Virus record (IMG/VR): IMGVR_UViG_3300045988_125802
Origin: a virus
Reading direction: 5' to 3' (one strand)
DNA length: 64,000 nt
How positions within the stretch are numbered: position 1 is the stretch's first letter; each line of letters starts with the position of its first letter. Under the pieces are notes generated by a model. It was not told the DNA's origin. It made no database searches and saw only the letters and a list, made by a program, of their open reading frames with translations. Below are positions 2,774-51,378 of this stretch, piece by piece. The position numbers and the translations under genes were made by a program.

Positions 2774-3522
2774 TTGTAGTTTTCACAGACAGGAAGGTAT
2801 CTCTCAATGAGGTATCTTCCTACAAGAAGTATAAATTCTTATGCAACTATGATACTATATCTCTCTATGATATGGTAGAAGACCCAAGATATACTGGTAA
2901 GATGATGGTAGTAGGGTTTACTTGTGATACTGATAGAGTTCAACAAGGAATGACACTGAAAGACATCTATATTACCAAGGTAAATGGACAAGTTATCAAT
3001 CAGCCTGCTGGATTGGTTAATGGTAGCTTAGCAGGAAGTGATTTTGACATTGACAAACAAAGAACAAGCAACATGGAAGAGAAAAGAAATATCAAGGTAA
3101 CACTTGAACAGGCAATGGAGTGGTATAATAGTGGTAATAGTACATTGCGTACATTAGCATTGAGTGCATATACTGAGGATGAATTGAAGTTCAATCTCAA
3201 GTACATCAACAGCAAGGTATGCAATACATGCTTTTGTGCCAGTGTTCCTGCTAATGAAGCAGAGAAGTACAATACACTTGCAGACTTGGCAATCATTGCT
3301 AAGTTCTTCAATGGCTCTTGGAAGAAAACCACAAACAATACAGGATATTTCCTTGGCAATTTCAATGCTGAATATGGTCCTGTAGTTGATACTTGTAATG
3401 GTGTTAGTGTATATCAACACAATACTGTACAGTATGCAGGTGTTGTGTATTTCAGGAATCAAGAAGATGCAATCAAAGCAATCAAGATTTTGGGTAAAAG
3501 AGTAAAGAGTCTATTTGATTAA
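2761..3522 (+). CDS. hypothetical protein (253 aa)
   Basis: Long ATG ORF. The antisense ORFs 3000-3365 and 3154-3462 are judged shadows. Confidence 0.6.
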   Translation: MRTIIVVFTDRKVSLNEVSSYKKYKFLCNYDTISLYDMVEDPRYTGKMMVVGFTCDTDRVQQGMTLKDIYITKVNGQVINQPAGLVNGSLAGSDFDIDKQRTSNMEEKRNIKVTLEQAMEWYNSGNSTLRTLALSAYTEDELKFNLKYINSKVCNTCFCASVPANEAEKYNTLADLAIIAKFFNGSWKKTTNNTGYFLGNFNAEYGPVVDTCNGVSVYQHNTVQYAGVVYFRNQEDAIKAIKILGKRVKSLFD

Positions 3523-4614: not shown

Positions 4615-5010
4615 ATGTTTTATGTATTAATGTTTGAGTTCATGCTATTGGGAGTAATAGGTGGACTATTAGGTATATTCTATAGGAATTGCCTGAAGGT
4701 TGAGGATATGATATTCTATCCTTTGTATAGTAAAGTGTTTGTACCTATGGTTAAAAGTGGCAATAGGTTCTTACATTTTATAGCATATCCATTGGGATTC
4801 TGCATCTATTGTAGTACCTTTTGGATAACCATGCTCATTCTTATACTCTTCTTGACAAGCTGGGACTCACTTCCTAAGTGGCAGGATATTGTAATAGGAA
4901 TTATAGCAGCAGAAGGTGTAGCTCACCTGATAGTGTGTATAAGTTGCAGATTCTTAATACATAAACATCCTGACTTAGATAAGGATTACTTAAAACATTT
5001 ACATGAATAA
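4615..5010 (+). CDS. integral membrane protein (about 4 TM segments)
   Basis: The ORF track starts at 4573 inside the tRNA-like element. The ATG at 4615 follows an 11-nt A run and begins MFYVLMFEFMLLGVIGG. Confidence 0.55.
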   Translation: MFYVLMFEFMLLGVIGGLLGIFYRNCLKVEDMIFYPLYSKVFVPMVKSGNRFLHFIAYPLGFCIYCSTFWITMLILILFLTSWDSLPKWQDIVIGIIAAEGVAHLIVCISCRFLIHKHPDLDKDYLKHLHE

Positions 5011-5025
5011 CTAAAACAGTAAGAT

Positions 5026-5925
5026 ATGCAAAAGGATTTAGTTTTCTTCAAGAAGGAAGGTGAAGAAGGAGTAGCCTTAACTTCTACAAGTGCTAACCAT
5101 ATTGCTAACTTAGCTAAGGAGTATATTCAAGGTGCGGAGACACAATTGAATAATATAAGCTTCTTTAATGTTGAGGTGGCATTGGTAGGCAGTACTGGAG
5201 GTGCAAGTACCATTCAGACAGGGGAATCATCCGAAGTTTTAGATAGCTTACAATCATTGCTTGAGGGAGTAGCACAGGCTAAATCCCTTATAGCTTGGTT
5301 GAGAGAAGGCATCAAAGCTAAGGAGAATCTGATGAAGGGCTTGCAGACTATCAGCCTTGAGGATTGGTGTAAGGAGAATGGAATGGTTAAGCCTGAAACT
5401 CCTAACTATGGTCATGTATTGACTGAAGTAGAGTATTATGCTTCTCTTCCTATCAAGGAGAGAAACAGATACTATCAGTTAGAGACTGAGGCTGCTGTAT
5501 TAGGTAAGTATATTCATCCTGATGGGCACTTGTCTGATGTAAGAAAGGAGTTAAAGGACAATATTTATCATCCTCATAAAGTGGATGGTAAAGGCAGGGA
5601 TGCCCTTATCTACACCTATACTCCTACTACAAGCATAGCTATAGTAGACAATGTATTCTATGAACTTCAAAAGAAGCACAGAGAAATACAGGCTCAACTG
5701 AATGCTATGAAGTACAGCTGTGAGCAGGCTATCAATGAGTCCACTAATAAGGTGAACACAGAGTTTATGGCTGCTTCACAGAAGTACCAAGCTGAACTCA
5801 AAGATGTATTAGGAGCCTTCAAGACATGGAAGGATGAGAAGTCTCAAGAGTACAGCAAGTTGAAGATTGTAGTACCTAACTCACTGTTAGGTATTTATAA
5901 TACTATCAACTCTTTGGGCAAGTAA
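5026..5925 (+). CDS. hypothetical protein (299 aa), partly coiled-coil
   Basis: Long ATG ORF with no recognised motif. Confidence 0.6.
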   Translation: MQKDLVFFKKEGEEGVALTSTSANHIANLAKEYIQGAETQLNNISFFNVEVALVGSTGGASTIQTGESSEVLDSLQSLLEGVAQAKSLIAWLREGIKAKENLMKGLQTISLEDWCKENGMVKPETPNYGHVLTEVEYYASLPIKERNRYYQLETEAAVLGKYIHPDGHLSDVRKELKDNIYHPHKVDGKGRDALIYTYTPTTSIAIVDNVFYELQKKHREIQAQLNAMKYSCEQAINESTNKVNTEFMAASQKYQAELKDVLGAFKTWKDEKSQEYSKLKIVVPNSLLGIYNTINSLGK

Positions 5926-6178
5926 ATAAGGACTTGGGATATTAATCCCTAACCTTATTGAATACACATAGCAGGTATCTGTTCTTATTCATAGAATTAA
6001 TTGCTAATAAAAAGTGATATATCTAATGCTCAGCCATTAGATAGTCTGTTATTCCAAAATAACCAACCCTATGAAGTCTGACTGATGGAGGGATGTTCTT
6101 GTTCTTGATGGAATGACAGGTTCTTGCTATTGATATTGGCTTTGTGTTGGTAGGTATTTGCTATGTGTAACTTGTCTT

Positions 6179-6264
6179 TGTATCTTGGTGTAATTGGTAG
6201 CACATCAGAGATAGGAGTAATCCCGTATTGCATCTGGAGGTTAGGTTCGAGTCCTAAGATACAC
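6179..6264 (+). tRNA. tRNA-like gene with a 23-nt anticodon loop
   Basis: Acceptor TGTATCT/AGATACA, D arm GTGT-AATTGGTA-GCAC, T arm TAGG-TTCGAGT-CCTA. The stem TCAGA/TCTGG encloses 23 nt (6210-6232) instead of 7. Confidence 0.45.
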
Positions 6265-6293
6265 CACATTTATTGTTTCACTTCTAAAAAAAG

Positions 6294-6659
6294 ATGGAAA
6301 AGAATGAAGAAAAGGTTCTGGAAAGAAATCTGGAACAGGAGCATTTTGAAGATGCTGCAATAGCCATTAAAGGTGGCAAAGAGAATGGTGGTTTAACCAA
6401 TGTTGAACTTGTTGAAAACTTGGTAGAAAGCTACAAAGGTAAGACAGTGCAAGCACCTATTGAGGTGATTATAACAAGTGCAATATTCCTCAATGTGAGA
6501 GAGTTGATGGGTATTATTGAAGCCTTGAAATATACTCTTCACGTTAAAATGACAGAGGAGTTGAGAGAAAAAGCAGATAAGGGAGAAGCTACAGCAAGAG
6601 ATGCAATAGCTGCTCTTATGCTTGCTGTAACTATGAAGAAAGAATCTGAAGAAGATTAA
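6294..6659 (+). CDS. hypothetical acidic protein (121 aa)
   Basis: ATG ORF preceded by an A-rich leader. Confidence 0.55.
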   Translation: MEKNEEKVLERNLEQEHFEDAAIAIKGGKENGGLTNVELVENLVESYKGKTVQAPIEVIITSAIFLNVRELMGIIEALKYTLHVKMTEELREKADKGEATARDAIAALMLAVTMKKESEED

Positions 6660-18118: not shown

Positions 18119-18826
18119 ATGGAAGCAAGAAAAATTACAGTCGTACAGACTAAGAATCAGAAAAAGAGTGTTATCATGTCAGCAGCCACGACCCTTGCTG
18201 AGTTGAAAAGTGACCTGAGAGCCAATGGTATTGACTATAATGGTATGACCTTCTTTGAGGGTACATCAAAGGTTGAATTGAAGAATGATGCTTCAGTTCT
18301 GCCACATGATGTTCCTTACAAGGGCACTATCACAAATGAGTTGGTTTTCATGCTTACTAATACCAACAAGAAAATCAGAAGTGGTGCTGTTGCAATGAGT
18401 AGAGCTGAGGCATACAATGCTATCAAATCTATGGGTTTGCAGGATGCTTGTGTAAAGAAGTTTGGCAAAAACTTCACTATGTGTAAGACTGCTGACCTTA
18501 TTGCATTGGTACAGAGTAATGGTGCTTCAAAGCCTGCTCCTGCTGCTCCTAAAGCTGAAGCTAAGGCTGAGACTAAGAAGGAGGGAAAGGTAGAAGCACC
18601 TGTAAGTAATGGTGGTGAGTGTGTTGATACTGTAGCAAGAGCTGCTATCAGCAAGTTGGTGGAAATTCTTGAGGACAATGGCACAATTGAAGATTATGAG
18701 AAAGAGAAAGTGCTTGATATTCTTGGGGGTGCAGTAGAAGTTGCACCATCTGAGGAATATAAGCCTAAGTCAGCTTCTCCTTACTCTGATGATGAGATTG
18801 ATGATATGTTTAATTTTGTAAACTAA
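18119..18826 (+). CDS. hypothetical protein with Ala/Pro/Lys-rich linker and acidic tail
   Basis: ATG ORF after an 11-nt A run. Confidence 0.55.
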   Translation: MEARKITVVQTKNQKKSVIMSAATTLAELKSDLRANGIDYNGMTFFEGTSKVELKNDASVLPHDVPYKGTITNELVFMLTNTNKKIRSGAVAMSRAEAYNAIKSMGLQDACVKKFGKNFTMCKTADLIALVQSNGASKPAPAAPKAEAKAETKKEGKVEAPVSNGGECVDTVARAAISKLVEILEDNGTIEDYEKEKVLDILGGAVEVAPSEEYKPKSASPYSDDEIDDMFNFVN

Positions 18827-18831
18827 ATTAT

Positions 18832-19371
18832 ATGGTTGAAATATGGAGACCTATACAAGGATATGAAGGGTTATATGAAGTTTCTAATTTAGGGAATGTG
18901 AAATCTCTAAGTAGGAATGCTTTACTAAGCAAGCACAAGAATAACAGAGGATATTTATCTGTAAGCTTATACAAGGAAAATGTAGGAAAACATTATCTTG
19001 TACATAGACTTGTAGCACAGGCTTTTATTAATAATCCTTTCAACTTACCTTATGTAAATCATAAAGATGAGAACCCTATTAATAATGTTGTAAGCAATCT
19101 TGAGTGGTGTAGTCAAAGTTACAATGTAAATTATGGGAGTGCTCAAGAAAGACTCTCTTCAAAGAAAATTAGTAAAAAGAGAGGACTAAAAATAGCACAA
19201 TATAGGGCAAGTATTCTTGTAAAGACTTATAACTCAGCTTCTCAAATACAAAGAGAGTTAGGATATAATACTGCTCCAATACTTAATTGTTGTAGAGGAG
19301 GATATTATAGAGGAGGTAAGTGGGTCTCAGTATCTCAATCTTATGGCTTTGTTTGGAAATTTGCAGAATAA
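18832..19371 (+). CDS. free-standing NUMOD4-HNH homing endonuclease
   Basis: WRPIQGYEGLYEVSNLGNVKS (NUMOD4-like) and VNHKDENPINNVVSNLEW (HNH). Confidence 0.8.
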   Translation: MVEIWRPIQGYEGLYEVSNLGNVKSLSRNALLSKHKNNRGYLSVSLYKENVGKHYLVHRLVAQAFINNPFNLPYVNHKDENPINNVVSNLEWCSQSYNVNYGSAQERLSSKKISKKRGLKIAQYRASILVKTYNSASQIQRELGYNTAPILNCCRGGYYRGGKWVSVSQSYGFVWKFAE

Positions 19372-19428: not shown

Positions 19429-20733
19429 ATGAGTGGAGAAACAATTAAATTAATTGAGGAGAAGATAGAAGAACTATATAACTCCTTGATGGACAGACCA
19501 CTCCGAGTATTAAGCATATTCAATGACTTTTTTGGAGAGGATAAAGTTGATATGCAAGGATATTGGAGTTTGGACAAGTTCAAATCTTGGATGAATATAG
19601 AGCCTTTATCTACTTATATTCCTGATGGTAATATTGTAAGCATGAACAGGAATGACTGGAGCATGTATAAAACATGGGCTATTACTGATTTACCTGGAGA
19701 CCAGGTAGAAAAGGTTGTAAATGTGCTTACAAGTACTACAGTAAAGGAAAGAATTGGTAATGCTAAGTTCAATGGCATATTCATTCTTGTACATTTTCCT
19801 CATATAAGAGTAACTAATGAGCATGACAGATTTGTGGATATTAACCATCTGTGGGCTAAGGTAAAAGTAATGTATAATGGCACATTGAATGGTGGATTTA
19901 CACTTAACAGGTCAGAATATACTATGCTTCACATTAGCAGTGGATATATGCACAGTCATATCGATAGTATTCCTACAAGTGACTTTACCAGTTTTCAGAA
20001 TCCTTGCACAGGCAATGGTCCCATCAATGGTACTATTAGTGCCCTCAATAGGGATTATGATGAGGATATATGGAATATGTTTTGTCTTGAGCTAAGTAAG
20101 TATGTAACTGTAGAATCCATTGCTGGCAGACCTTATAAATATCTGGAAAAGTTAGGTACTAATAACATGGAGATGGGTGTAGATAGGTTTGTTACATATC
20201 TATCACCAGGCTACTACTATGGGGGTGCTCTTAGTTCTGATAAGTTGAAGGAGTTTGTAAGAGGCTTTATCAATTCAAAGAAACTTAAATTCAATTATGT
20301 AAATGGCTCTTATTCTATTGGTATGTCACTTATTGAGTTTATTGTACTTATTAGCAATGAATTTATTAAGTGGTATAATGACCAGTTTAATAAAGAGGAA
20401 CTAACTGCCAAGTTTGCAGAATTGAAGAGGAAAGGTACCTTGAAAGAATGTATCATAGATAATGGGAAGATTTACTATGATAAAGGTAGGAACAATGTAA
20501 ATACCTATGCCCAATATATAGGCAAGAAGGTTTGCATGTTCAAGGGAAGAGAGGTTACTGTTGATATTACAGATATTGCTGAGGTAAGGAATGAGAATAA
20601 GAGTATAATTCTTAATATTCGTACCGCACTATACATATTAGCAACAATACTTAAAGTGTTAAATTATAGATATGGAAGAAGTAAAGCAACCCACGAAAGT
20701 AATCAGCTTGGTACAGAAGTCAGGTACTTATAA
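19429..20733 (+). CDS. hypothetical protein (434 aa), first gene of the JAB/E1 cassette
   Basis: Long ATG ORF. Its last 62 nt overlap the JAB gene. It contains YMHSH...NPCTGNGP, which is not assignable by eye. Confidence 0.6.
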   Translation: MSGETIKLIEEKIEELYNSLMDRPLRVLSIFNDFFGEDKVDMQGYWSLDKFKSWMNIEPLSTYIPDGNIVSMNRNDWSMYKTWAITDLPGDQVEKVVNVLTSTTVKERIGNAKFNGIFILVHFPHIRVTNEHDRFVDINHLWAKVKVMYNGTLNGGFTLNRSEYTMLHISSGYMHSHIDSIPTSDFTSFQNPCTGNGPINGTISALNRDYDEDIWNMFCLELSKYVTVESIAGRPYKYLEKLGTNNMEMGVDRFVTYLSPGYYYGGALSSDKLKEFVRGFINSKKLKFNYVNGSYSIGMSLIEFIVLISNEFIKWYNDQFNKEELTAKFAELKRKGTLKECIIDNGKIYYDKGRNNVNTYAQYIGKKVCMFKGREVTVDITDIAEVRNENKSIILNIRTALYILATILKVLNYRYGRSKATHESNQLGTEVRYL

Positions 20734-21889
20734 TTATAAGCTGATTATCCCAGCAGAAGTGGAGAGAAAGATAAGATTTGCCTGCCAAAAGGTGTGGAGT
20801 ACTGAATGGTCAGGTACACTATTCTTTACACATGAAGGTTCATTTGAAAATAATGACCTTGTAATAAGATGTGTGGATATTTACATTATGGATATTGGTA
20901 CTCAAGCCTATACAGAGTTTGATATGAATCCTGATGTGATAGCCTATATGTGTGAGAATCCTGAGCTACTTGATTGCCAAATAGGTCTTATACATTCCCA
21001 TAACAATATGAGTACTTTCTTTAGTGGAACAGATACTGCTACTCTAAAGGAGGAAGGTAGGGATAGAAATAACTTTGTATCTCTCATTGTGAATAATGCA
21101 GGTACTTATACTGCTGCAATTACAAGGAGAGTTAAGTCAAAGCAGGTCAAAGAGTCTGTGTCTTATGAGTTCTTTGGTGATGGTGAAAAGCATGATACTA
21201 AGGAATATGTAAGTAGTGCAGATGAAATTGAATGGTTCTATCTTAAAATAGAGAATGAAAATGAAACATTTTCATTCCCAGACATGGCAGCAAGACTTGA
21301 GGAAATCGAGCAAGCCAAAGCAGAAAGGGCAGAGAAAGCTAAGAAAGCTCGAACACCTGTATATCAAGGTGGCTATAAACCTGTTATTGCTAATTCCTAT
21401 GGTACAAAGGCAGGTCCAGCAAATCTTGTCAAGAAGGAAGCTGATAAGCCTAAGGTAGCTCAGCCAACTCTCTTTGATAATGCAGATGACTTGCCATTTG
21501 AAGAGGGGTATGACATACCTTATGGTCATGTATCATTTGATAAGGTTACTTTGAAATCTCTTGTACTTCAATTGATTACAGGTAGTATTATCATTTCTAA
21601 TGATAGTAAGATTGACATTACTAAATGGGCTAAGTCAATGCCTACACTGTATGAAAAGAGGTTTGGTAAAGGCAAAGCTGGTATGGATAATTTCAAGATA
21701 TGGGCAGAGACCTATGCAGAGTATCTGACATGGTATATAACAGATGAGAAATTAGAAGAGCTTGGCTTTGATGAAACAGAAATTTGTGCTATTTGTGCCC
21801 ATGATATGATAGAGGAGCTTACAAAACTCCCTGAAAATGATTATATCAAAGGGTATATTGATGCACTTCAAAAGTATTTAGTATTATGA
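20672..21889 (+). CDS. JAB/MPN+ (JAMM) metalloprotease domain protein
   Basis: Upstream Glu (TEWSG) plus H-S-H-x7-S-G-T-D (IHSHNNMSTFFSGTD, 20993-21034) gives a complete JAMM motif. About 240 aa at the C-terminus are of unknown function. Confidence 0.75.
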   Translation: MEEVKQPTKVISLVQKSGTYNYKLIIPAEVERKIRFACQKVWSTEWSGTLFFTHEGSFENNDLVIRCVDIYIMDIGTQAYTEFDMNPDVIAYMCENPELLDCQIGLIHSHNNMSTFFSGTDTATLKEEGRDRNNFVSLIVNNAGTYTAAITRRVKSKQVKESVSYEFFGDGEKHDTKEYVSSADEIEWFYLKIENENETFSFPDMAARLEEIEQAKAERAEKAKKARTPVYQGGYKPVIANSYGTKAGPANLVKKEADKPKVAQPTLFDNADDLPFEEGYDIPYGHVSFDKVTLKSLVLQLITGSIIISNDSKIDITKWAKSMPTLYEKRFGKGKAGMDNFKIWAETYAEYLTWYITDEKLEELGFDETEICAICAHDMIEELTKLPENDYIKGYIDALQKYLVL

Positions 21890-23004
21890 GTGAAGAAGCA
21901 ATTGAGGCATATAACTCTCTTATGGAGAGCCTCAATGAAGGTGATGTTCGTGAATATAATGAGGTGGGACATGCTGACCTTAGTACCTTCAACAGTGTCC
22001 TTAATAGTATTAGAATGGGTCTCATTACCTCTCTTTATGTTGTTGGTTTGGATGGTGTACCTAATACCTATAAAATTGTATATAGTAGCACTGAAGGTGT
22101 AACAGGTAGAATCTTTGTCAATGAACACTTCAAAAGTTTAATTGAAGAGGCTTGGGCTATAAGGATAGGTAACTCTGTAGAAGATGATGGTGACAGCATT
22201 AGCTTTGAACTTTCAGAGGAAGAACAGGCTATTCTTGACCAAGCTGTAGAAGATGCACACCAAGAGATACCTACAAACTCTGCAACTTTGCTTGTGGATG
22301 AAGCTACAAGTAGGTTTAGTTCTGCCATTTGGTATGAGAACATTCAGAAGAAGACTGTCATTTTGGCAGGTGTAGGTGGCATTGGTAGTTATGTAGGCTT
22401 CTTATTGGCAAGAATGAAGCCAGCTTCCATGTTTATCTATGATGATGACATAGTGGAAACTGTCAATATGTCAGGTCAGTTATATGGTCAATCTGATTTA
22501 GGTAGACCTAAAGTATCTGCACTGGCTGAGATGATTAGAAACTATGCTGGCTATAGCAGTGTCTTTGCAATAAGGGAAAGATTCACTGATGAATCTGAGG
22601 CATCAGACATTATGATTTGTGGCTTTGATAACATGGCAGCAAGAAGACTCTTCTTTAATAAATGGGTAAATCATGTTCAATCCAAACCAGAGGAGGAAAG
22701 GAAGAATTGCCTGTTCATTGATGGTAGGTTGGCAGCAGAGGAGTTTCAGGTATTGTGTATCAAGGGAGATGATGAGTACAACATCAATAGGTACAATAAT
22801 GAGTTCCTATTCTCTGATGCAGAAGCTGATGAAACTATCTGCTCCTATAAACAAACTACCTTCTGTGCAAATATGATTGCATCTTATATGGTTAATTTGT
22901 TTGTAAACTTCTGTGCTAATCAATGTGAGCCTCTCATTGATAGAGACCTGCCATTCCTTACCACATATAATGCAGAAACAATGTATCTTAAAACTGAAGT
23001 ATAA
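21886..23004 (+). CDS. E1-like ThiF/MoeB-family adenylyltransferase domain protein
   Basis: ILAGVGGIGSYVG (22369-22389), DDDIVETVNMSGQ, GRPKVSA and FDNMAARR match the ThiF/E1 Rossmann core. About 150 aa at the N-terminus are unknown. ATGA overlap with the JAB gene. Confidence 0.75.
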   Translation: MSEEAIEAYNSLMESLNEGDVREYNEVGHADLSTFNSVLNSIRMGLITSLYVVGLDGVPNTYKIVYSSTEGVTGRIFVNEHFKSLIEEAWAIRIGNSVEDDGDSISFELSEEEQAILDQAVEDAHQEIPTNSATLLVDEATSRFSSAIWYENIQKKTVILAGVGGIGSYVGFLLARMKPASMFIYDDDIVETVNMSGQLYGQSDLGRPKVSALAEMIRNYAGYSSVFAIRERFTDESEASDIMICGFDNMAARRLFFNKWVNHVQSKPEEERKNCLFIDGRLAAEEFQVLCIKGDDEYNINRYNNEFLFSDAEADETICSYKQTTFCANMIASYMVNLFVNFCANQCEPLIDRDLPFLTTYNAETMYLKTEV

Positions 23005-23774
23005 TGGAATTTAACCCAAGATTTGCATATAATGTAATGGGTGTTTTCAATAGCAGTGAGTCTGGTAATCCAGACCAGCTTGAAATGAATCTGTCTCTTG
23101 ATAGTAACAATGTATTTAGAAGAAGCCTTGTCATTGAAGTAAACAATGATGAGGTAGAGATACCTGTGATTGCAAGAGAACACTTTGAGAAGCTGGTTTC
23201 AGACAATATGGCTTATCCCGCAATTATGGGAATCAAGAGGATAATATTGCCATTATATGACAATGCACCAAGCCAAGAAAGAAGAACCTTTGATAGTATC
23301 ATAGCTCAATTATTTACTAATGTAGGATATGGTAAAGGATTGCAGAAGATAACTACCAATAAGGGTGAAGTGTATTATGGTGGTAAAGGTATCATCTTTG
23401 ATGAGAGCTACACTCCATTACTATTATGTACATTAACTGCAAGAAGTGTACATACTGAGGATAATGGTAATGCTATGGTCTATTACAGACCTGTATGCCA
23501 TGTCAGTCCCAAAGTATTCTTAGAGTCTGATAAGTTGATTAATAAAGGCATCATCAAGAAATTGATTCCCTATTATACAAGTAGGGATATAAATTTCCCA
23601 AGAAACAATTACAGCTTCAGCAGTAATCCAGAGGACAGGAAAGTAAAGGTCATAGTAGATAATTTCAATAAGTTCTTTGTAGAACCTATTAAACCTACTC
23701 CATCTGCCTGCTCTAATGATGCACTGAATGAATGCCTTATTGACAATATTGATGACATAATGATGTTGATATGA
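23004..23774 (+). CDS. hypothetical protein (256 aa), last gene of the JAB/E1 cassette
   Basis: TAATG overlap with the E1-like gene and ATGA overlap with the UDG gene. Confidence 0.55.
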   Translation: MEFNPRFAYNVMGVFNSSESGNPDQLEMNLSLDSNNVFRRSLVIEVNNDEVEIPVIAREHFEKLVSDNMAYPAIMGIKRIILPLYDNAPSQERRTFDSIIAQLFTNVGYGKGLQKITTNKGEVYYGGKGIIFDESYTPLLLCTLTARSVHTEDNGNAMVYYRPVCHVSPKVFLESDKLINKGIIKKLIPYYTSRDINFPRNNYSFSSNPEDRKVKVIVDNFNKFFVEPIKPTPSACSNDALNECLIDNIDDIMMLI

Positions 23775-24448
23775 CATTAGATGAATACTTTGGAGATTGG
23801 ATGAAGGTAATTGATAGGACAGAGCTTAATAATGTAATGGCTAAGGTTGGGCAAGAATACAGGAGGAAACCATTGTGTCCTGCCCAATCTGATGTATTCA
23901 GAGCATTTGAGCTTTGCCCTCTCAATGACTTGAAAGTAGTTATGTTAGGTCAAGACCCCTATCCACAAAAGGAAGTGGCAACTGGAGTATTATTCGGGAA
24001 TAGAAAGGAAGTTGATGAGGATAACTTATCTCCTTCATTAAATGTTGTTAAAGAGGCAGCAATTAATTTTGAAGTTCCACATTATTGTATTACCTTTGAC
24101 AACTCTCTTGAGAGTTGGTCTAAACAAGGAATACTAATGATAAATTCTGCACTCACTGTAGAAATGAATAGGATAGGTTCCCATGTGATGTTGTGGAGAC
24201 CCTTCATAGCTAAATTGCTAAAGAACTTGTCTGAATATAATACAGCTATAGTATATGTATTGTTTGGCAGGCAAGCCCAAACCTTCAAACCTTATATTAA
24301 TGATAGGTTCAATCATATCATAGAGATTGAACATCCTGCATACTTTGCAAGGAGTGGTACTAAGATGCCACATCAGCTATTTGTTGATATAAGTAATAAG
24401 GTAAAAGAGATTTATGGTGTACCTATAAAATGGTACGAAGAGTATTAA
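23771..24448 (+). CDS. ung: uracil-DNA glycosylase (family 1-like)
   Basis: VVMLGQDPYP catalytic motif, GVLFGN, and C-terminal EHPAYFA in place of HPSPLS. Confidence 0.75.
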   Translation: MTLDEYFGDWMKVIDRTELNNVMAKVGQEYRRKPLCPAQSDVFRAFELCPLNDLKVVMLGQDPYPQKEVATGVLFGNRKEVDEDNLSPSLNVVKEAAINFEVPHYCITFDNSLESWSKQGILMINSALTVEMNRIGSHVMLWRPFIAKLLKNLSEYNTAIVYVLFGRQAQTFKPYINDRFNHIIEIEHPAYFARSGTKMPHQLFVDISNKVKEIYGVPIKWYEEY

Positions 24449-24465
24449 TACTAAACAAAAAAAAA

Positions 24466-25020
24466 ATGGAAAAGATTTATTTGACAAATGGTAAGGAAGT
24501 ACAGATTGGAGACACTTTGACTAAAGTATCTAAGGTAGTAGACCCTTTCTTTGGTGAGGGTACTGTAGTTCAGCACATTGTGGTAACTAAGGACATTCTT
24601 CCTAAGCTCCTTGAGGCTGGCATTGTTACTACTACCAAGCCTGCAAAGTCTGCTGTGGTTGAATCTGAGGTTCCTATGGAGCTGGAGTACTACATTCAGA
24701 AGATTGCAGAGAAACTTGGTTGGAAGATTGAGAAGGTCTATAACTATCTCAATAGTGTAGATACTATTCTTCCTGCTGCTGCATTCTCTATGGTACTTAG
24801 AGAAGTAGCCATTGAGTTGGACAAGAAGTATGAGGACCATATTGAGAAGAGTCCTGAGATTTATGTAATCTCTATGCTTGATGGTAGAATCACTAAGGCT
24901 AACAAAGCCCACATCAAGAACTATAGGAACTTCGCAGCATTTAGATCTATAAATGATGCTAAAATTGCTTGCAGAATCACTAAAGACCTACTTAAAAGAT
25001 TATTCAAGAGTGACAAATAA
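24466..25020 (+). CDS. hypothetical protein
   Basis: The ORF track starts at 24430. The ATG at 24466 is the end of a 10-nt A run. Confidence 0.5.
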   Translation: MEKIYLTNGKEVQIGDTLTKVSKVVDPFFGEGTVVQHIVVTKDILPKLLEAGIVTTTKPAKSAVVESEVPMELEYYIQKIAEKLGWKIEKVYNYLNSVDTILPAAAFSMVLREVAIELDKKYEDHIEKSPEIYVISMLDGRITKANKAHIKNYRNFAAFRSINDAKIACRITKDLLKRLFKSDK

Positions 25021-25498
25021 GAAAATTAGGAATGCCACTATATGTACTGCCAAGAATGTAACTTTTAAAAGTGTATTAGAGAAGTCATGCTTTACTTATC
25101 TTGAAGAGCAAGGATTTATGCCTGAATATGAACCAAGAAAGTTTACTATCTTTCCTTCCTTTATTCCCATAACTCCCTTTTATGATAAAGAGACTGATGT
25201 ACAACAGAAGAAAAGAGTTGAATCTCTAGGCGGGCAAAGAGGCAAAGAGCTTAGGTTATGTGATAAGTCAGTTCCACCAATTACATATACCCCAGATATA
25301 TATATAAGGTATAATAATTTGGATATTTGGATAGAGTGTAAAGGATTCGCTAATGATGTGTTTCCTTATAAGAAAAAGATGTTTAGGAAGTTGCTTGATG
25401 ACATATATATAAAAACAGGACAAAAAAGTATGTATTTTGAAATATATTCCAAGAAGCAGCTTTTACAGGCTATAGAAATTATCAAAGGTCATGGATAG
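24953..25498 (+). CDS. T7 endonuclease I-like PD-(D/E)XK nuclease (Holliday junction resolvase candidate)
   Basis: YTPDIYI ... IWIECKG reproduces the PD...E-x-K arrangement of T7 gp3. It overlaps the upstream gene by 68 nt. Confidence 0.55.
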   Translation: MMLKLLAESLKTYLKDYSRVTNKKIRNATICTAKNVTFKSVLEKSCFTYLEEQGFMPEYEPRKFTIFPSFIPITPFYDKETDVQQKKRVESLGGQRGKELRLCDKSVPPITYTPDIYIRYNNLDIWIECKGFANDVFPYKKKMFRKLLDDIYIKTGQKSMYFEIYSKKQLLQAIEIIKGHG

Positions 25499-49600: not shown

Positions 49601-50690
49601 TAATAGAGTCAAGACAAGTAAACTTGCCTTATGGGATGAATTATTCAATGTATTGCAGGAATATGAAACTGATGTTAGAGAGGTAAACTTTGATAGAAAG
49701 ACTTGGTTCAGTAGAATGTTTGGTGCTTCTGCCTTGTTCCTTATGAATAATGCTGGTGAGCATTGGATGCAGAATAGAACCTCATTAGCACTTGCAGATG
49801 CTTATAAAATGAAAGCCCCTGATGGTAAGATAGTATCTCTATGGGATGCTATGGAAGTGGTTCCTATTGATAAGAATAACAAGAAATTAGGTGCTAAGTT
49901 ACAGCTAAAGCAAGGTTATACTAAGGAGGATGGGTCTGCATTTACAAGAGATGATATTATAGCATTCAGTAGAAAGTCTGCTGCTATAAATCAGAGAATG
50001 CACGGTATTTATAATAAGGCTGACAGAAGTGCAGTACAAAGGTTAGCTGTAGGTAGAATGGGTGTTATGTTTAGAAAGTGGATTAAGCCATCTCTGAACA
50101 GAAGATTCAAGTCTGCCACATATAACTATGACTTGCAAGCATGGACAGAAGGTTACTATAATACCACAGGTAGGTTCTTGATGCAGCTTGCTAAGGAATT
50201 AAAAGAAGGTCAGTTTGCACTAGCTGCAAATTGGAACCAACTTTCCAAGACTGAGAAAGCAAATATCAAAAGAGCTGCAACTGAAGTAGGACACTTCTTA
50301 GCAGTAGCACTTGTACTTGGTCTTATGGACTGGTCAGATGACAAGGATAGACCTTGGCTGGCTAAGATGGCAGAATATCAGGCAAGAAGATTATACACTG
50401 AATTAGGTTCATTGATTCCTGGACCTCAGATGGTTGGAGAAGGATTGAAGATTATAAAGTCTCCTGCTGCTGGCATTAATACTCTTGAGAATACTCTTGA
50501 TTTAATTGGACTTATGAATCCATTTAATTATGAAGTATTTGCTGGAGAAGATGCTTTGATACAGTCAGGAAGATATGAAGGGGAGTCTAAGGCAACAAGA
50601 CTATTCTTTGAATCTCCACTTATTCCAATGAATAGAACCATTTATAGAGGTTTACATCCTGAGGAAGGTATTCCATTCTTCAAGCAATAA
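46635..50690 (+). CDS. large virion/ejected-cargo-type protein (1351 aa), function unknown
   Basis: It starts 3 nt after the RNAP stop and has hydrophobic segments near the C-terminus. The assignment rests on synteny with crAss-like RNAP/cargo blocks only. Confidence 0.45.
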   Translation: MARSCAIIPKVRNRNGQVVDSKLFKDLLSFTSNNRSEATRLYLITKADSFIRDWNPRLTLDENNEPTLRSLLKQTNLSKVIPETKVLERLNREIGYYKKGMDRPALWVNNDENYQKLKQRAIAFNQNSEYRDDYVANIVKIQDSESPRVFIGVKVEKRNRLNSINADKMEYNENLNNRLRGILESHGIGIGALTDLEKRMGVHGVTDFDVARNAANGLVEMIRLANSIQGERALPEEFAHFAIEAMGDNPLITRLINNISSNGLAREIIGEDYDTYDTLYHSDDTKLAKEAAGKLLAKHLLQGENIPSAPYKNLLQRVIQAVKSFFKNISASPIQRAMKEADKNFGSLAQQILNGSMDEAIDVSNIASNGVFYSTSERVARDKKLLQGIIENELKRLKIYEKRNPNSQFSANQRLLIDRLDIELADNNEIEGIYTFVENALEELTKVSDRLTMLQNTPATNVNERARVLRDVRNYLYSYKHITDDIRKALIDEEKYADNRYGQRVRVVLDNTTTLLGDLFVRYNEVSMPLFVDFIKPFVGESITVPFGKFKGKTMTAEDLVKVADKDISFFDRWLDSMADSSDYMLKVMDQAVKKSKENARLETINVMKELQAATIKLEQAGVKSTDWMFERDSKGNLTGNYISEINQGLFKEKVREMFKSLNEKYGKNPVGDNAEKYRKERQAWFDANMEIVNGKKQPKVSIYGNKAYQNLNPAQKEYYNKVMEIKAKLDSYLPDKYTTLTNAVKIRKDLLERVKASDGVKSGSTQVWEAVKDQFIRRTDDTEFGDRATVKDFEGKEVQVLPIYYTKMKEGESPNDLSTDIVSTLTAYAAMANDFNEMNKVIDVLELGRDMLKEREIIQTRGGKPLVEKFKSVGRRVESTLTKSGDETRFMQRLNDFFEMQVYGRYMADEGTFGNTKIDKGKVANFVNRMTSLNTLAVNVLSGISNVATGGVMMRIESFSGEFFNESNTLRADRNYGQALPEFLAEIGNRVKTSKLALWDELFNVLQEYETDVREVNFDRKTWFSRMFGASALFLMNNAGEHWMQNRTSLALADAYKMKAPDGKIVSLWDAMEVVPIDKNNKKLGAKLQLKQGYTKEDGSAFTRDDIIAFSRKSAAINQRMHGIYNKADRSAVQRLAVGRMGVMFRKWIKPSLNRRFKSATYNYDLQAWTEGYYNTTGRFLMQLAKELKEGQFALAANWNQLSKTEKANIKRAATEVGHFLAVALVLGLMDWSDDKDRPWLAKMAEYQARRLYTELGSLIPGPQMVGEGLKIIKSPAAGINTLENTLDLIGLMNPFNYEVFAGEDALIQSGRYEGESKATRLFFESPLIPMNRTIYRGLHPEEGIPFFKQ

Positions 50691-50714
50691 CATAACAGAT
50701 AATAATTAGCAGAT

Positions 50715-50762
50715 AGGGAGAGTGAGTAGATTAAGCTCTACTCCTCCCCTTATTTTTTTTTA
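50715..50762 (+). terminator. rho-independent terminator
   Basis: GGGAG(AGT)GAGTAGA-TTAAGC-TCTACTCCTCCC hairpin followed by TTATTTTTTTTT. Confidence 0.7.
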
Positions 50763-50769
50763 TTCAAAA

Positions 50770-50801
50770 TTTGCTACCCTGCAAAAACTTTTGTATCTTT
50801 G
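50770..50801 (+). promoter_or_regulatory. Bacteroidota-type promoter (TTTG-N20-TATCTTTG)
   Basis: -33 TTTG at 50770-73 and -7 box at 50794-50801. The ATG is at 50819. Confidence 0.5.
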
Positions 50802-50818
50802 CAGAAAATTTATATGAT

Positions 50819-51343
50819 ATGGAAAATTGGAAATTAATAGATGAAAATTCTAAGTATGAAGTGAATAATGAAGGACAAGTGAGGAATGTAAAAACAGGAA
50901 GATTACTAAAGCCATTCCTTAGTCATAATAGGTATCTAAAAGTAAGTTTAGGAGGTAAAAATAGGATGATACATAGACTTGTGGCATTAGCTTTTCTTCC
51001 TAATCCCAATAATTATCCTTTTATAAACCATAAAGATGAAGATAAGGAGAACAATAGTGTAGAAAATTTAGAATGGTGTACCGCTAAATATAATATAAAT
51101 TATGGAGATAGAACTGCAAAATTTGTAGAGACCATAAATACTAAGAGAAAAATTAGACCTTATTTATATAGACCTGTATTACAGTACTCTCTTGATGGTG
51201 AATTTATACAAGAGTTTCCATCTATAAAAGCTGCTGCACAAGCTATAAATGCTAAAAATGACTCTGGAATTGGGCTATGCTGTAGAGGGAAATATAAATA
51301 TGCTATGGGATATATTTGGAGGTATAAAAATAGGGCAAGGTAA
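50819..51343 (+). CDS. free-standing NUMOD4-HNH homing endonuclease
   Basis: MENWKLIDENSKYEVNNEGQVRNV and INHKDEDKENNSVENLEW. The track ORF from TTG 50771 covers the promoter. Confidence 0.8.
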   Translation: MENWKLIDENSKYEVNNEGQVRNVKTGRLLKPFLSHNRYLKVSLGGKNRMIHRLVALAFLPNPNNYPFINHKDEDKENNSVENLEWCTAKYNINYGDRTAKFVETINTKRKIRPYLYRPVLQYSLDGEFIQEFPSIKAAAQAINAKNDSGIGLCCRGKYKYAMGYIWRYKNRAR

Positions 51344-51354
51344 CAACCCTGCCC
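51333..51354. terminator. hairpin at the convergent gene junction (possible bidirectional terminator)
   Basis: GGGCAAGG-TAACAA-CCCTGCCC (7 of 8 bp), flanked by A/T runs on both sides. Confidence 0.35.
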
Positions 51355-51378
51355 TAATAAAAAATTTCACCCTACTGA

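What the first reader, a model, noticed from the sequence alone, without database searches (positions are those of the whole stretch)
19429..23774. Phage-borne JAB/MPN+ protease and E1/ThiF-like enzyme in a four-gene coupled cassette: candidate ubiquitin-like conjugation or deconjugation system
Directly seen: ORF 20672-21889 carries a complete JAMM site (Glu in TEWSG, then HSH-x7-SGTD at 20993-21034). ORF 21886-23004 carries the ThiF/E1 nucleotide-binding core (GVGGIGS at 22369-89, DDDIVETVN, GRPKVSA, DNMAARR). The four genes are chained by overlaps: 62 nt at 20672-20733, ATGA at 21886, TAATG at 23004, and ATGA at 23771 into UDG. Established knowledge: E1-like plus JAB pairs define prokaryotic ubiquitin-like transfer systems such as CBASS Cap2/Cap3, Bil-type operons and the Prok-E2/Prok-JAB neighbourhoods of Iyer, Burroughs and Aravind. 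Those are mostly host defence or conflict systems. Here the pair sits in the replication module of what looks like a lytic crAss-like phage, with a 434-aa and a 256-aa protein that I cannot assign and no obvious E2 or beta-grasp Ubl. Both enzymes also carry large unknown extra regions. The E1 motif reads NMSGQ where canonical E1s have SNLxRQ, so the arginine is absent and the chemistry may differ. Inference: the cassette could modify phage or host proteins, or could reverse host Ubl-based antiphage conjugation.
Basis: partly seen in the sequence, partly recalled or inferred. Interest (0 to 1): 0.85.

Follow-up and report, generated by a model that had tools for sequence, protein, structure and literature searches.

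The report
Phage ubiquitin-like E1/JAB gene cassette
A whole lineage of abundant gut and fish-pathogen phages carries, inside its DNA-replication genes, a strictly co-inherited set of four genes (a probable ubiquitin-like precursor, a large enzyme-like protein with no known fold, a JAB protease and an E1-type activating enzyme) that looks like a virus-owned protein-tagging system whose function nobody has studied.

Summary
All ORFs, motifs and junction overlaps are exactly where stated. The JAMM site is complete and invariant. The ThiF/E1 core is well supported (Pfam 64 bits), and its Arg-less N-x-x-G-Q motif is invariant across the family.

The cassette boundaries need correcting. The fourth gene, D (23004-23774), is detectable only within Steigviridae-like phages. 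The gene upstream, U (18119-18826), is separated from A here by an inserted HNH homing endonuclease and belongs to the unit. U, A and JAB each occur in exactly 74 of 50,697 GenBank phages with the same taxon breakdown. U-A-JAB-E1 keep this order in every complete locus examined, including the distant FpV4-like and Dulem-like phages.

U begins with an ~89-aa domain that aligns collinearly with ubiquitin and ends in a near-universal K-S-G. This support is moderate. Protein A belongs to a family of more than 2,000 clusters. Its model is confident (pLDDT 92.5) but matches no solved structure and is not a detectable E2.

Best reading (about 0.45): a phage-encoded Ubl-conjugation-like pathway in the Bil gene order Ubl-X-JAB-E1. 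It is not a member of Bil, CBASS, PRTRC or ThiF/MoeB. The biochemistry is untested.

The parts
18119..18826 (+). Gene U (235 aa; crAss001 Gp79, FpV4 gp53): candidate Ubl precursor. It has an N-terminal beta-grasp-like domain, a conserved GKNFTxCKTxDLxAL module, a low-complexity linker and an acidic/aromatic tail SxxEIxxMF.
   Evidence: Alignment. It is conserved immediately upstream of A in all loci. crAss-only HMMs hit Dulem at 2.5e-29 and FpV4 gp53 at 2.9e-13. It occurs in 74 GenBank phage records, the same count and taxon breakdown as A and JAB.
18119..18385 (+). U N-terminal domain (residues 1-89), ending in invariant K84...S88-G89 (KKIRSG|A). This is the proposed Ubl moiety and the proposed JAB cleavage and E1 activation site.
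   Evidence: Global hhalign against a ubiquitin-family profile is collinear over b1-b2-a1-b3-b4-b5 and scores 15.6, against a shuffled null of 3.4+-2.3 (0 of 200 reach it). It ranks 1 of 111 real windows, with the next best at 12.3. Sub-threshold PDB hits to DIX beta-grasp domains have E 0.75-1.5. K-S-G (K-A-G in one locus) is kept in all divergent loci, followed by unrelated sequence. No significant HMMER hit to a Ubl.
18832..19371 (+). NUMOD4/HNH homing endonuclease inserted between U and A. It is not part of the system.
   Evidence: Pfam NUMOD4 1.5e-15 and PHROG HNH 6e-49. It is absent at this position in bajarodcaudo virus 1, crAss001 and most loci.
19429..20733 (+). Gene A (434 aa; crAss001 Gp78, FpV4 gp52): a large phage-specific protein with an orphan fold and enzyme-like invariant residues.
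   Evidence: 2,280 clusters at 50% identity with E<=1e-3, and 820 with E<=1e-30. AF2 model with pLDDT 92.5 and pTM 0.85. No PDB match, best E=1.0. BFVD returns only uncharacterised phage orthologs. No Pfam, NCBIfam or PADLOC family.
19945..20007 (+). Conserved core of A: Y173-x-H175-S176-H177 ... P192-C193-x-G195. Together with N130, R161, E221, E229-S230, G233 and P235 this is a putative Cys/His active site.
   Evidence: Invariant or at least 90% conserved in 145 sequences of 31-50% identity. Y.HSH and C.G are kept in FpV4-like and Dulem-like branches.
20677..20730 (+). Disordered C-terminal tail of A (residues 417-434), following near-invariant N412..Y415-G416 and ending in [RK]-[YF]-[LIFV]-COOH.
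   Evidence: pLDDT below 50. In 151 representatives the last residue is L/I/F/V in 143 and the residue before it is Y/F in 111. The motif is specific to the Steigviridae-like branch and is lost in the FpV4/Dulem branches.
20672..20733 (+). 62-nt dual-coding overlap of A (tail) and B (N-terminus).
   Evidence: An overlap is also annotated in crAss001 and other Steigviridae, in FpV4 (125 nt) and in Dulem virus 41 (80 nt). Both frames show suppressed wobble diversity.
20672..21889 (+). Gene B (405 aa; crAss001 Gp77): JAB/MPN+ (JAMM) metalloprotease domain (about residues 25-165), plus a low-complexity linker and a Steigviridae-specific C-terminal domain (about 270-405).
   Evidence: Prok-JAB in 10 of 10 members. 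Nearest PDB hit is Pyrococcus JAMM1 at E=0.014. Alignment. Only HMM positions 20-258 are conserved in FpV4 and Dulem.
20804..21034 (+). JAMM catalytic residues: E45 (20804-20806) and H108-S-H110-x7-S118-x2-D121 (20993-21034).
   Evidence: Invariant. Intact in FpV4 gp51 (HSHNTMAVFFSGTD) and Dulem (HSHHRMGAFFSGED). A LAGLIDADG-carrying insertion targets exactly these codons in L059.
21886..23004 (+). Gene C (372 aa; crAss001 Gp76 'ThiF'): a single-domain E1-like adenylating enzyme (core about residues 128-372) with a variable N-terminal extension (1-~125).
   Evidence: Pfam ThiF 1.3e-17. PDB profile hits to UBA5 (4.7e-8), MccB, TcdA, PaaA and Cap2. Ortholog lengths range from 256 to 403 aa because the N-terminus varies.
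22369..22842 (+). E1 active-site elements: Gly loop G162-S168 (22369-22389), D186/D188, N194-M-S-G197-Q198 (22465-22479, with Gly where canonical E1s have Arg), K209 (22510-22512), D248 (22627-22629) and crossover-loop C319 (22840-22842).
   Evidence: All invariant. FpV4 has HNTGGQ and ...PCTMKQT; Dulem has ENMAGQ and ICSYKQT.
23004..23774 (+). Gene D (256 aa; crAss001 Gp75): a lineage-specific fourth gene of unknown function. It holds this position in Steigviridae-like phages but is not part of the deep core.
   Evidence: Present in all Steigviridae-like loci. No family, PDB or PHROG hit. Not detected in FpV4 or Dulem (E=0.005 at 5.7 bits, and none) nor in 15 divergent loci.
23771..24448 (+). 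Uracil-DNA glycosylase: a neighbour coupled by ATGA, but not part of the unit.
   Evidence: Pfam UDG 6.7e-13. In FpV4 the UDG lies upstream of the U homolog instead.

Best explanation
The unit is a phage-encoded ubiquitin-like protein-modification system of four co-inherited genes, U-A-JAB-E1, in the same order as bacterial Bil operons (Ubl-E2-JAB-E1).

Shown here:
- The JAB has a complete, invariant JAMM site.
- The E1 keeps its nucleotide loop, Lys, Asp and a crossover-loop Cys, but lacks the canonical Arg.
- The four genes are always together and in the same order.
- U's first ~89 residues end in a near-universal Lys-Ser-Gly followed by unrelated sequence.
- A is a conserved, enzyme-like protein of unknown fold.

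Inferred mechanism:
1. U is made as a precursor.
2. The JAB protease cuts after Gly89 and frees a beta-grasp modifier with a C-terminal Gly.
3. The E1 adenylates that Gly and probably takes it onto Cys319.
4. Protein A, through its invariant Cys193/His177 centre, acts as the transfer or specificity enzyme, a functional analogue of an E2/E3.
5. A attaches the modifier to phage or host proteins during genome replication.
6. The JAB may also reverse the conjugates.

In Steigviridae-like phages the lineage-specific D protein, the C-terminal domain of B and the conserved tail of A would be accessory parts such as adaptors, docking sites or targets.
For: - Catalytic integrity of the JAB and E1 across deep divergence.
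- ThiF Pfam hit above its cut-off, and Prok-JAB in 10 of 10 members.
- Perfect phyletic co-occurrence: U, A and JAB are each in exactly 74 of 50,697 phage records with the same taxon breakdown, and E1 is in 83 (those taxa plus 9 other records).
- The order U-A-JAB-E1 holds in about 80 Steigviridae-like loci, seven named genera, Dulem virus 41, FpV4 and 15 divergent viral contigs.
- U's N-domain aligns collinearly with the ubiquitin family (z about 5 against shuffles; rank 1 of 111 real windows), has sub-threshold DIX beta-grasp hits, and ends at K-S-G in all branches, with variable sequence after the Gly.
- JAB pre-processing of Ubl precursors, and the Ubl-E2-DUB-E1 order, are documented for Bil and Bub (PMC10557695; PMC11601596).
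- A's invariant His/Cys/Glu residues across 145 diverse sequences.
- Homing elements insert at the JAB catalytic codons, which implies invariant DNA that the phage cannot lose.
Against: - The Ubl fold of U is not established. There is no significant HMMER, Pfam or PDB hit. The hhalign margin over other real windows is small, 15.6 against 12.3.
- A is not a detectable UBC/E2 by Foldseek on a pLDDT-92 model or by hhalign, so its transfer role rests only on position and on conserved Cys/His.
- The E1 lacks the Arg of the NxxRQ motif in every member, so adenylation chemistry could be altered or absent.
- No target is known.
- All curated E1-family models score far below their cut-offs.
Confidence: 0.45

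Rival explanations
1. Sulfur-carrier pathway. U's beta-grasp domain acts like ThiS/MoaD/CysO. The JAB exposes its C-terminal Gly (as Mec+ does for CysO), the ThiF-like E1 adenylates it, and it is converted to a thiocarboxylate. Protein A, with its conserved Cys, uses that sulfur to thiolate a nucleotide, tRNA or cofactor needed during replication.
For: The best curated matches of the E1 are ThiF-type models (NCBIfam PRK08644 at 66 bits, thiF_fam2 at 56 bits). It is a minimal single-domain E1 like ThiF/MoeB. JAB plus ThiS/MoaD plus E1 sulfur operons are known (Iyer et al. 2006). The cassette sits among nucleotide-metabolism genes: UDG, dUTPase and RNR.
Against: All ThiF/MoeB models are far below their cut-offs (66 against 159 bits). 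There is no rhodanese, cysteine desulfurase or PP-loop protein in the unit. The C-terminus would be Ser-Gly, not Gly-Gly. A has no detectable sulfurtransferase fold.
Confidence: 0.15
2. Cap2/Cap3-like priming of an enzyme. Protein A itself is the E1 substrate. Its disordered tail, either its own end or a JAB-exposed ...Y-G416, is adenylated and A is conjugated to a target to switch on its activity, as CD-NTases are in type II CBASS. U would be an unrelated replication protein.
For: A has a disordered polar tail of median 17 aa with a conserved end, after a near-invariant N..YG motif. The tail is under selection in the dual-coding overlap. PADLOC Cap2 (E1-E2) models are the best defence-library hits of the E1, at 7e-12.
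Against: The tail motif is lost in the FpV4-like and Dulem-like branches, while E1 and JAB stay intact there. The terminal residue is bulky (L/I/F), unlike known E1 substrates. There is no E2 domain on the E1, and the PADLOC matches cover only the E1 Rossmann part. This model does not explain the strict co-inheritance of U and its K-S-G.
Confidence: 0.12
3. Counter-defence only. The JAB strips host Ubl conjugates (Bil, type II CBASS) from phage or host proteins, and the Arg-less E1 is a decoy or scaffold that binds host Ubls without activating them.
For: Host Ubl systems target phage proteins (PMC10557695). The E1 lacks the canonical Arg in all members. The JAB site is intact.
Against: The unit behaves as a fixed core module in one position across very divergent phages, not as a variable accessory gene. 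The E1's Gly loop, Lys, Asp and Cys are invariant, which a decoy would not need. This model does not explain U's K-S-G or A's conserved catalytic-type residues.
Confidence: 0.1
4. Non-protein or peptide carboxylate activation, as in TcdA, MccB or PaaA. The ThiF-like enzyme adenylates a small molecule, a nucleotide derivative or a short peptide, and A and the JAB act as tailoring enzymes.
For: MccB, TcdA and PaaA are among the PDB profile hits at 5e-7 to 1e-5. The E1 has a variable N-terminal extension that could be a substrate clamp.
Against: The N-terminal extension is absent in many orthologs, which are as short as 256 aa. There is no precursor-peptide ORF in the unit. NCBIfam TcdA scores 20 against a cut-off of 304 bits. 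JAB partners are typical of protein C-terminal chemistry.
Confidence: 0.08

Closest known systems
BilABCD (bacterial ISG15-like) antiphage operons
   Same: Four genes in the order modifier - transfer enzyme position - JAB - E1. In Bil the JAB pre-processes the Ubl to expose a C-terminal Gly (PMC10557695). U's domain ending in Ser-Gly followed by extra sequence fits that logic.
   Different: This system is encoded by a lytic-type phage as a core replication-module unit, not by a bacterial defence island. The E1 is a single ~230-aa adenylation domain, not the IAD-AAD-CYS architecture. The protein in the E2 position (A) has no detectable UBC fold. The PADLOC BilD hit is only 4.7e-5. The Ubl is fused to a large C-terminal region.
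Bub (6E/DUF6527) operons
   Same: A highly diverged Ubl pathway in which a JAB cleaves a Ubl fusion pre-protein. Its canonical catalytic residues are replaced, which shows that non-canonical E1/E2 chemistry can still conjugate (PMC11601596).
   Different: Bub uses Tyr and Ser oxyesters and a DUF6527 serine protease. Here a crossover-loop Cys is conserved, no DUF6527 is present, and the system is not bacterial.
Type II CBASS Cap2/Cap3
   Same: An E1-like enzyme plus a JAB act on the C-terminal tail of an enzyme. Cap2 models are the best PADLOC hits of the E1.
   Different: There is no E2-E1 fusion, no CD-NTase and no effector. The matches cover only the Rossmann core.
Archaeal SAMP/UbaA/JAMM1 and ThiS-ThiF / MoaD-MoeB / CysO-Mec+ systems
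   Same: A minimal single-domain E1 with a small beta-grasp protein and a JAMM protease, and no E2. The nearest solved JAB is Pyrococcus JAMM1. ThiF models are the best NCBIfam hits.
   Different: All curated models score far below their cut-offs. There is an extra conserved 430-aa protein A. The C-terminus is Ser-Gly. The E1 is Arg-less. The context is a phage.
Lambdoid and T1 phage tail-assembly TAPI (Ubl) - TAPK (JAB)
   Same: The only previously described phage Ubl-JAB pairing. There too the Ubl domain is fused to a C-terminal domain and is predicted to be released by the JAB (Iyer et al. 2006).
   Different: That system has no E1 and sits in the tail module. The present unit has an E1, sits in the replication module, and shows no sequence relationship to it.

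Membership tests
JAB/MPN+ (JAMM) metalloproteases | Catalytic motif E ... H-x-H-x7-S-x2-D | tested here: met
   E45, H108, H110, S118 and D121 are invariant in 10 orthologs and intact in FpV4 and Dulem.
JAB/MPN+ (JAMM) metalloproteases | Pfam Prok-JAB (PF14464) at or above the gathering score | tested here: inconclusive
   22.7 bits against a cut-off of 25 for the window protein. All 10 members hit at E<0.01. PDB JAMM1 at E=0.014.
E1-like / ThiF superfamily | Pfam ThiF (PF00899) above the gathering score; Rossmann Gly-rich loop, conserved Lys and Mg-binding Asp | tested here: met
   64.2 bits against 28.1. GxGGxGS, K209 and D248 are invariant. UBA5 at 4.7e-8.
E1-like / ThiF superfamily | Arg of the N-x-x-R-Q motif that contacts ATP phosphates | tested here: not met
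   NMSGQ in the window. It reads N-x-x-G-Q in all orthologs, including FpV4 (NTGGQ) and Dulem (NMAGQ).
Conjugating E1s (thioester-forming) | Catalytic Cys in or after the crossover loop | tested here: inconclusive
   C319 (TICSYKQTT) is invariant and kept in FpV4 and Dulem. Its structural position is inferred from linear order only. No E1 model was made.
BilABCD | E1 with tandem IAD-AAD plus a CYS domain, a UBC-fold E2, and a beta-grasp Ubl with C-terminal Gly | tested here: not met
   The E1 core is a single ~230-aa domain. There is no UBC match for A or any other protein. BilD scores 4.7e-5 only. The Ubl-like domain is only moderately supported.
Type II CBASS (Cap2/Cap3) | E2-E1 fusion protein, a CD-NTase and an effector | tested here: not met
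   PADLOC E1-E2 models align only to E1 residues ~150-240. There is no CD-NTase or effector in the locus.
PRTRC (ParB-related, ThiF-related cassette) | NCBIfam PRTRC_ThiF and PRTRC_A above their cut-offs, and a ParB partner | tested here: not met
   33.4 against 144.75 bits and 12.8 against 101.8 bits. There is no ParB in the neighbourhood.
ThiF/MoeB sulfur-carrier adenylyltransferases | Equivalog model scores above the cut-off | tested here: not met
   The best is PRK08644 at 66.4 against 159 bits. MoeB models score 25-35 against 266-449 bits.
Ubiquitin-like beta-grasp modifiers (for U residues 1-89) | Beta-grasp fold with a C-terminal Gly available for activation | tested here: inconclusive
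   Global hhalign is collinear, with 0 of 200 shuffles reaching the score and rank 1 of 111 real windows by a small margin. DIX hits at E about 1. K-S-G is conserved. There is no significant HMMER hit.
UBC/E2 superfamily (for protein A) | UBC fold with an HPN-like motif and a catalytic Cys | tested here: not met
   The pLDDT-92.5 model has no PDB match (best E=1.0; UBC-fold entries appear only at E>5 and TM about 0.2). hhalign against a UBC profile gives E=0.38.

The most novel reading that the evidence does not exclude
A complete, virus-owned ubiquitin-like conjugation pathway is a core replication-module function of a whole lineage of Bacteroidota phages (Steigviridae crAss-like phages and FpV4-like Flavobacterium phages). 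A precursor Ubl is released by a JAB protease and activated by an Arg-less minimal E1. It is then transferred by a new, non-UBC enzyme family (protein A, more than 2,000 sequence clusters) that represents an independent invention of E2/E3-like chemistry.
Probability: 0.35. Interest if true: 0.92.

Novelty: new variant of a known kind. Interest (0 to 1): 0.8.

Why it matters
Ubl conjugation in prokaryotes is currently known as a bacterial defence against phages (Bil, type II CBASS, probably Bub). A phage lineage that carries its own E1/JAB/Ubl-like unit as a fixed part of its replication genes would reverse that picture, because the virus would be using protein tagging for its own infection cycle.

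The carriers are crAss-like phages, among the most abundant viruses of the human gut, with cultured members (crAss001, DAC15) in which this can be tested, and phages of the fish pathogen Flavobacterium psychrophilum.

The work also singles out protein A as a very large, structurally novel family with a clear candidate active site. It gives a concrete mass-spectrometric signature to look for: a Ser-Gly remnant on Lys.

Tried and rejected
- Protein A as an E2. I proposed this from the helix / beta-meander / HSH / Cys / helix order in the first, poor model. A pLDDT-92.5 model found no UBC fold and hhalign against a UBC profile was negative, so I dropped it as a membership claim.
- Sequence-level identification of A and D. 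Pfam, PHROGs, NCBIfam, PADLOC and PDB profiles gave nothing.
- The first AF2 run of A with a shallow alignment (pLDDT 61) and its fold search were uninformative.
- BFVD returned only uncharacterised orthologs.
- A search for this E1 type in 185,579 bacterial and archaeal genomes gave 5 hits. All were 4-111 kb MAG contigs that look like mis-binned phage, so there is no cellular counterpart.
- D as a universal member was rejected.
- A's tail as the universal E1 substrate was weakened, because the motif is absent in distant branches.
- A zinc site made of H175, H177, C193 and C219 is unlikely, because C219 is not kept in FpV4 or Dulem.
- The promoter and terminator scan showed no enrichment over shuffles.
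Back-translation of the A alignment for a genome scan failed.
- Literature searches found no paper on this cassette in crAss-like phages.

Full report
**1. The observation**

Every quoted motif and junction is exact:
- HSHNNMSTFFSGTD at 20993-21034
- TEWSG at 20801-20815
- GVGGIGS at 22369-22389
- NMSGQ at 22465-22479
- a 62-nt A/B overlap
- ATGA at 21886, TAATG at 23004 and ATGA at 23771

Pfam recognises ThiF in C (1.3e-17; 64 bits against a cut-off of 28). It recognises Prok-JAB in B (9e-5; 22.7 bits, just under the cut-off of 25), and all ten B orthologs tested hit Prok-JAB.

The window is a crAss-like phage. Its nearest record is bajarodcaudo virus 1 (80% nt identity). The same genes in crAss001 are Gp78, Gp77 'metalloprotease domain', Gp76 'ThiF', Gp75 and Gp74 UDG.

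**2. Catalytic integrity**

In B, E45, H108, H110, S118 and D121 are invariant.

In C, the Gly loop, D186/D188, K209, D248 and a crossover-loop Cys (C319, TICSYKQTT) are invariant. The motif that reads S-N-L-x-R-Q in canonical E1s is N-M-S-G-Q in every member. The most distant relatives have NTGGQ (FpV4) and NMAGQ (Dulem virus 41), and they keep both the Cys and the JAMM site. The missing Arg is therefore a fixed family trait, not a local defect.

The E1 cannot be assigned to a known clade:
- NCBIfam ThiF, MoeB, TcdA, PRTRC, SAMP-E1 and 6A-MBL models all score far below their cut-offs.
- PADLOC Cap2 models match only the Rossmann part, and BilD scores 4.7e-5.
- The PDB profile hits are UBA5, MccB, TcdA, PaaA, Cap2, NAE1/UBA3 and ThiF.

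The E1 N-terminal extension comes and goes even among close relatives, with orthologs of 256-403 aa. The C-terminal domain of B is conserved only within Steigviridae-like phages.

**3. What the unit really is**

Across 80 related viral contigs the whole replication module is collinear, so synteny there says little. The informative comparisons are the distant ones.

In Flavobacterium phage FpV4 the order is gp53-gp52-gp51-gp50, with the UDG moved upstream. In Dulem virus 41 the same four genes are contiguous. HMMs built only from crAss-like sequences detect U, A, JAB and E1 in both phages:

| Protein | FpV4 | Dulem virus 41 |
|---|---|---|
| U | 2.9e-13 | 2.5e-29 |
| A | 5e-21 | 1e-31 |
| JAB | 1.9e-42 | 4e-42 |
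| E1 | 2.4e-52 | 2.1e-64 |
| D | 0.005 (5.7 bits) | no hit |

Fifteen further divergent contigs, with E1 down to 45% identity to FpV4, all show U-A-JAB-E1 in that order and no D.

In 50,697 GenBank phage records, U, A and JAB are each present in exactly 74 records with identical taxon breakdowns. E1 is present in 83, with the same taxa plus nine records from other phages such as Xanthomonas, Moraxella and Acinetobacter. All seven named genera found are Steigviridae/Asinivirinae.

This E1 type is essentially absent from cellular genomes. There were 5 hits among 185,579 species, all on 4-111 kb MAG contigs that look like phage.

**4. Gene U (18119-18826)**

The alignment shows four parts:
- an N-terminal ~89-residue domain
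- an invariant K84...S88-G89
- a second conserved module (GKNFTxCKTxDLxAL)
- a low-complexity linker and an acidic/aromatic tail (SxxEIxxMF)

The N-domain aligns globally and collinearly with a ubiquitin-family profile over b1-b2-a1-b3-b4-b5. The score is 15.6 against 3.4+-2.3 for 200 column shuffles, none of which reach it. It ranks first among 111 same-length windows cut from the real A, B, C, D and U families, but the next best scores 12.3.

HMMER finds no significant Ubl. Three of the six sub-threshold PDB hits of the domain-only profile are DIX domains (E 0.75-1.5), aligned from a1 to b5. That DIX is a ubiquitin-like beta-grasp is from my own knowledge.

In every divergent branch the domain ends in K-S-G, or K-A-G in one locus. 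What follows the Gly is unrelated from branch to branch. This is the signature of a domain boundary or processing site.

I rate a beta-grasp at about 0.65.

**5. Gene A**

The exhaustive profile search found 2,280 clusters (50% identity) at E<=1e-3, and 820 at E<=1e-30. The representatives whose contigs I examined sit in the same gene arrangement.

A shallow alignment gave a poor model, with pLDDT 61. A 145-sequence alignment gave pLDDT 92.5 and pTM 0.85. That model has no match in the PDB (best E=1.0, TM<=0.13), and in BFVD it matches only uncharacterised phage orthologs.

N130, S176, H177, C193, G195, G197, P198, E221, E229, S230, G233 and P235 are invariant across the 145 sequences. Y-x-H-S-H and C-x-G persist in the distant branches.

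My E2 hypothesis failed both tests.

In Steigviridae-like members A ends in a disordered tail of median 17 aa, after N..Y-G. The tail terminates in [RK]-[YF]-[LIFV]. The tail is encoded in the A/B overlap, where both frames show suppressed wobble variation, so it is a selected sequence. The motif is absent in the FpV4-like and Dulem-like branches.

**6. Mechanism**

The best-supported reading is a Ubl-conjugation-like pathway:
1. The JAB releases U(1-89) by cutting after Gly89.
2. The E1 adenylates that Gly, with C319 as the likely thioester site.
3. A, through C193/H177, acts as the transfer or specificity enzyme.
4. The JAB may also deconjugate.

The gene order Ubl - X - JAB - E1 equals the invariant Bil order. 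JAB pre-processing of Ubl precursors is experimentally established for Bil and Bub. Bub also shows that conjugation can survive replacement of canonical catalytic residues.

The steps shown here are the catalytic motifs, the co-inheritance, the gene order, the K-S-G boundary and A's conservation. The steps inferred are U's fold, its cleavage and activation, A's role and all targets.

The rivals are:
- a sulfur-carrier pathway
- Cap2-like priming of A through its own tail
- a counter-defence deubiquitinase with a decoy E1
- small-molecule or peptide adenylation

**7. Comparison and novelty**

The unit works most like Bil, Bub or SAMP-type systems, but it fails the membership tests for Bil, CBASS, PRTRC and ThiF/MoeB (see the membership table).

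Iyer et al. 2006 describe a phage Ubl-JAB pair only in tail assembly, without an E1. No searchable paper mentions ThiF or E1 in crAss-like phages. GenBank carries only the labels 'ThiF', 'E1 enzyme family protein' and 'metalloprotease domain'.

I therefore class it as a new variant of a known kind: known E1 and JAB parts, a probable Ubl, and a new partner family, in a viral core-gene context.

**8. Limits**

E-values near 1 are reported as hints only.

Noticed in passing
window 18832-19371: A NUMOD4/HNH homing endonuclease is inserted between gene U and gene A. It is absent at this position in bajarodcaudo virus 1, crAss001 and most related contigs. Related HNH copies sit at other positions in other loci.
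   Followed up: partly
L059 4611-6891 (JAB gene); LAGLIDADG ORF at 5096-5830, reverse strand: The JAB gene is split exactly at the H-S-H codons. Exon 1 ends ...GLIH and exon 2 resumes MSTFFSGTD. The ~1 kb insertion carries a LAGLIDADG homing endonuclease, so it is likely an intron. PHROGs also splits the JAB family at residues 105/107, and some Fpv phages show two tblastn pieces.
   Followed up: partly
L110 2991-6490; L114 4730-6007: In L110 both the JAB gene (2991-3302 and 4616-5530) and the E1 gene (5517-5717 and 5954-6490) are interrupted. In L114 about 1.3 kb is inserted between JAB and E1. The unit is a recurrent target of mobile insertions.
   Followed up: no
L012, L018, L021, L032, L049, L057, L064 (UDG gene): In these loci the UDG match starts only at residue 63 and lies about 1.1 kb further downstream than expected. 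This suggests an insertion at or next to the GQDPYP catalytic motif (window UDG residues ~60-65).
   Followed up: no
L085 (uncultured phage cr126_1) 3484-4410: The U ortholog of cr126_1 carries an inserted ribosomal protein L7/L12 C-terminal domain (Pfam PF00542, 5.1e-12) in its linker region.
   Followed up: no
window 21886-22260 (E1 residues 1-~125): The N-terminal extension of the E1 is present, replaced or absent even among phages whose E1 cores are 80-97% identical (ortholog lengths 256-403 aa). This suggests modular swapping of a substrate- or partner-binding region.
   Followed up: partly
window 24430-25498: The 196-aa ORF (24430-25020) and the 181-aa DUF1064 / Holliday-junction-resolvase-like ORF (24953-25498) overlap by 68 nt. 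This is a second long same-strand overlap in the module.
   Followed up: no
window ~50000-52000: GC skew and AT skew change sign near 51 kb, which is consistent with a switch of coding strand between genome modules.
   Followed up: no
L097 12594-13182: The anaerobic ribonucleotide reductase (NrdD) downstream of the cassette in this divergent crAss-like contig carries an intein (Pfam Intein_splicing between two NRDD hits).
   Followed up: no
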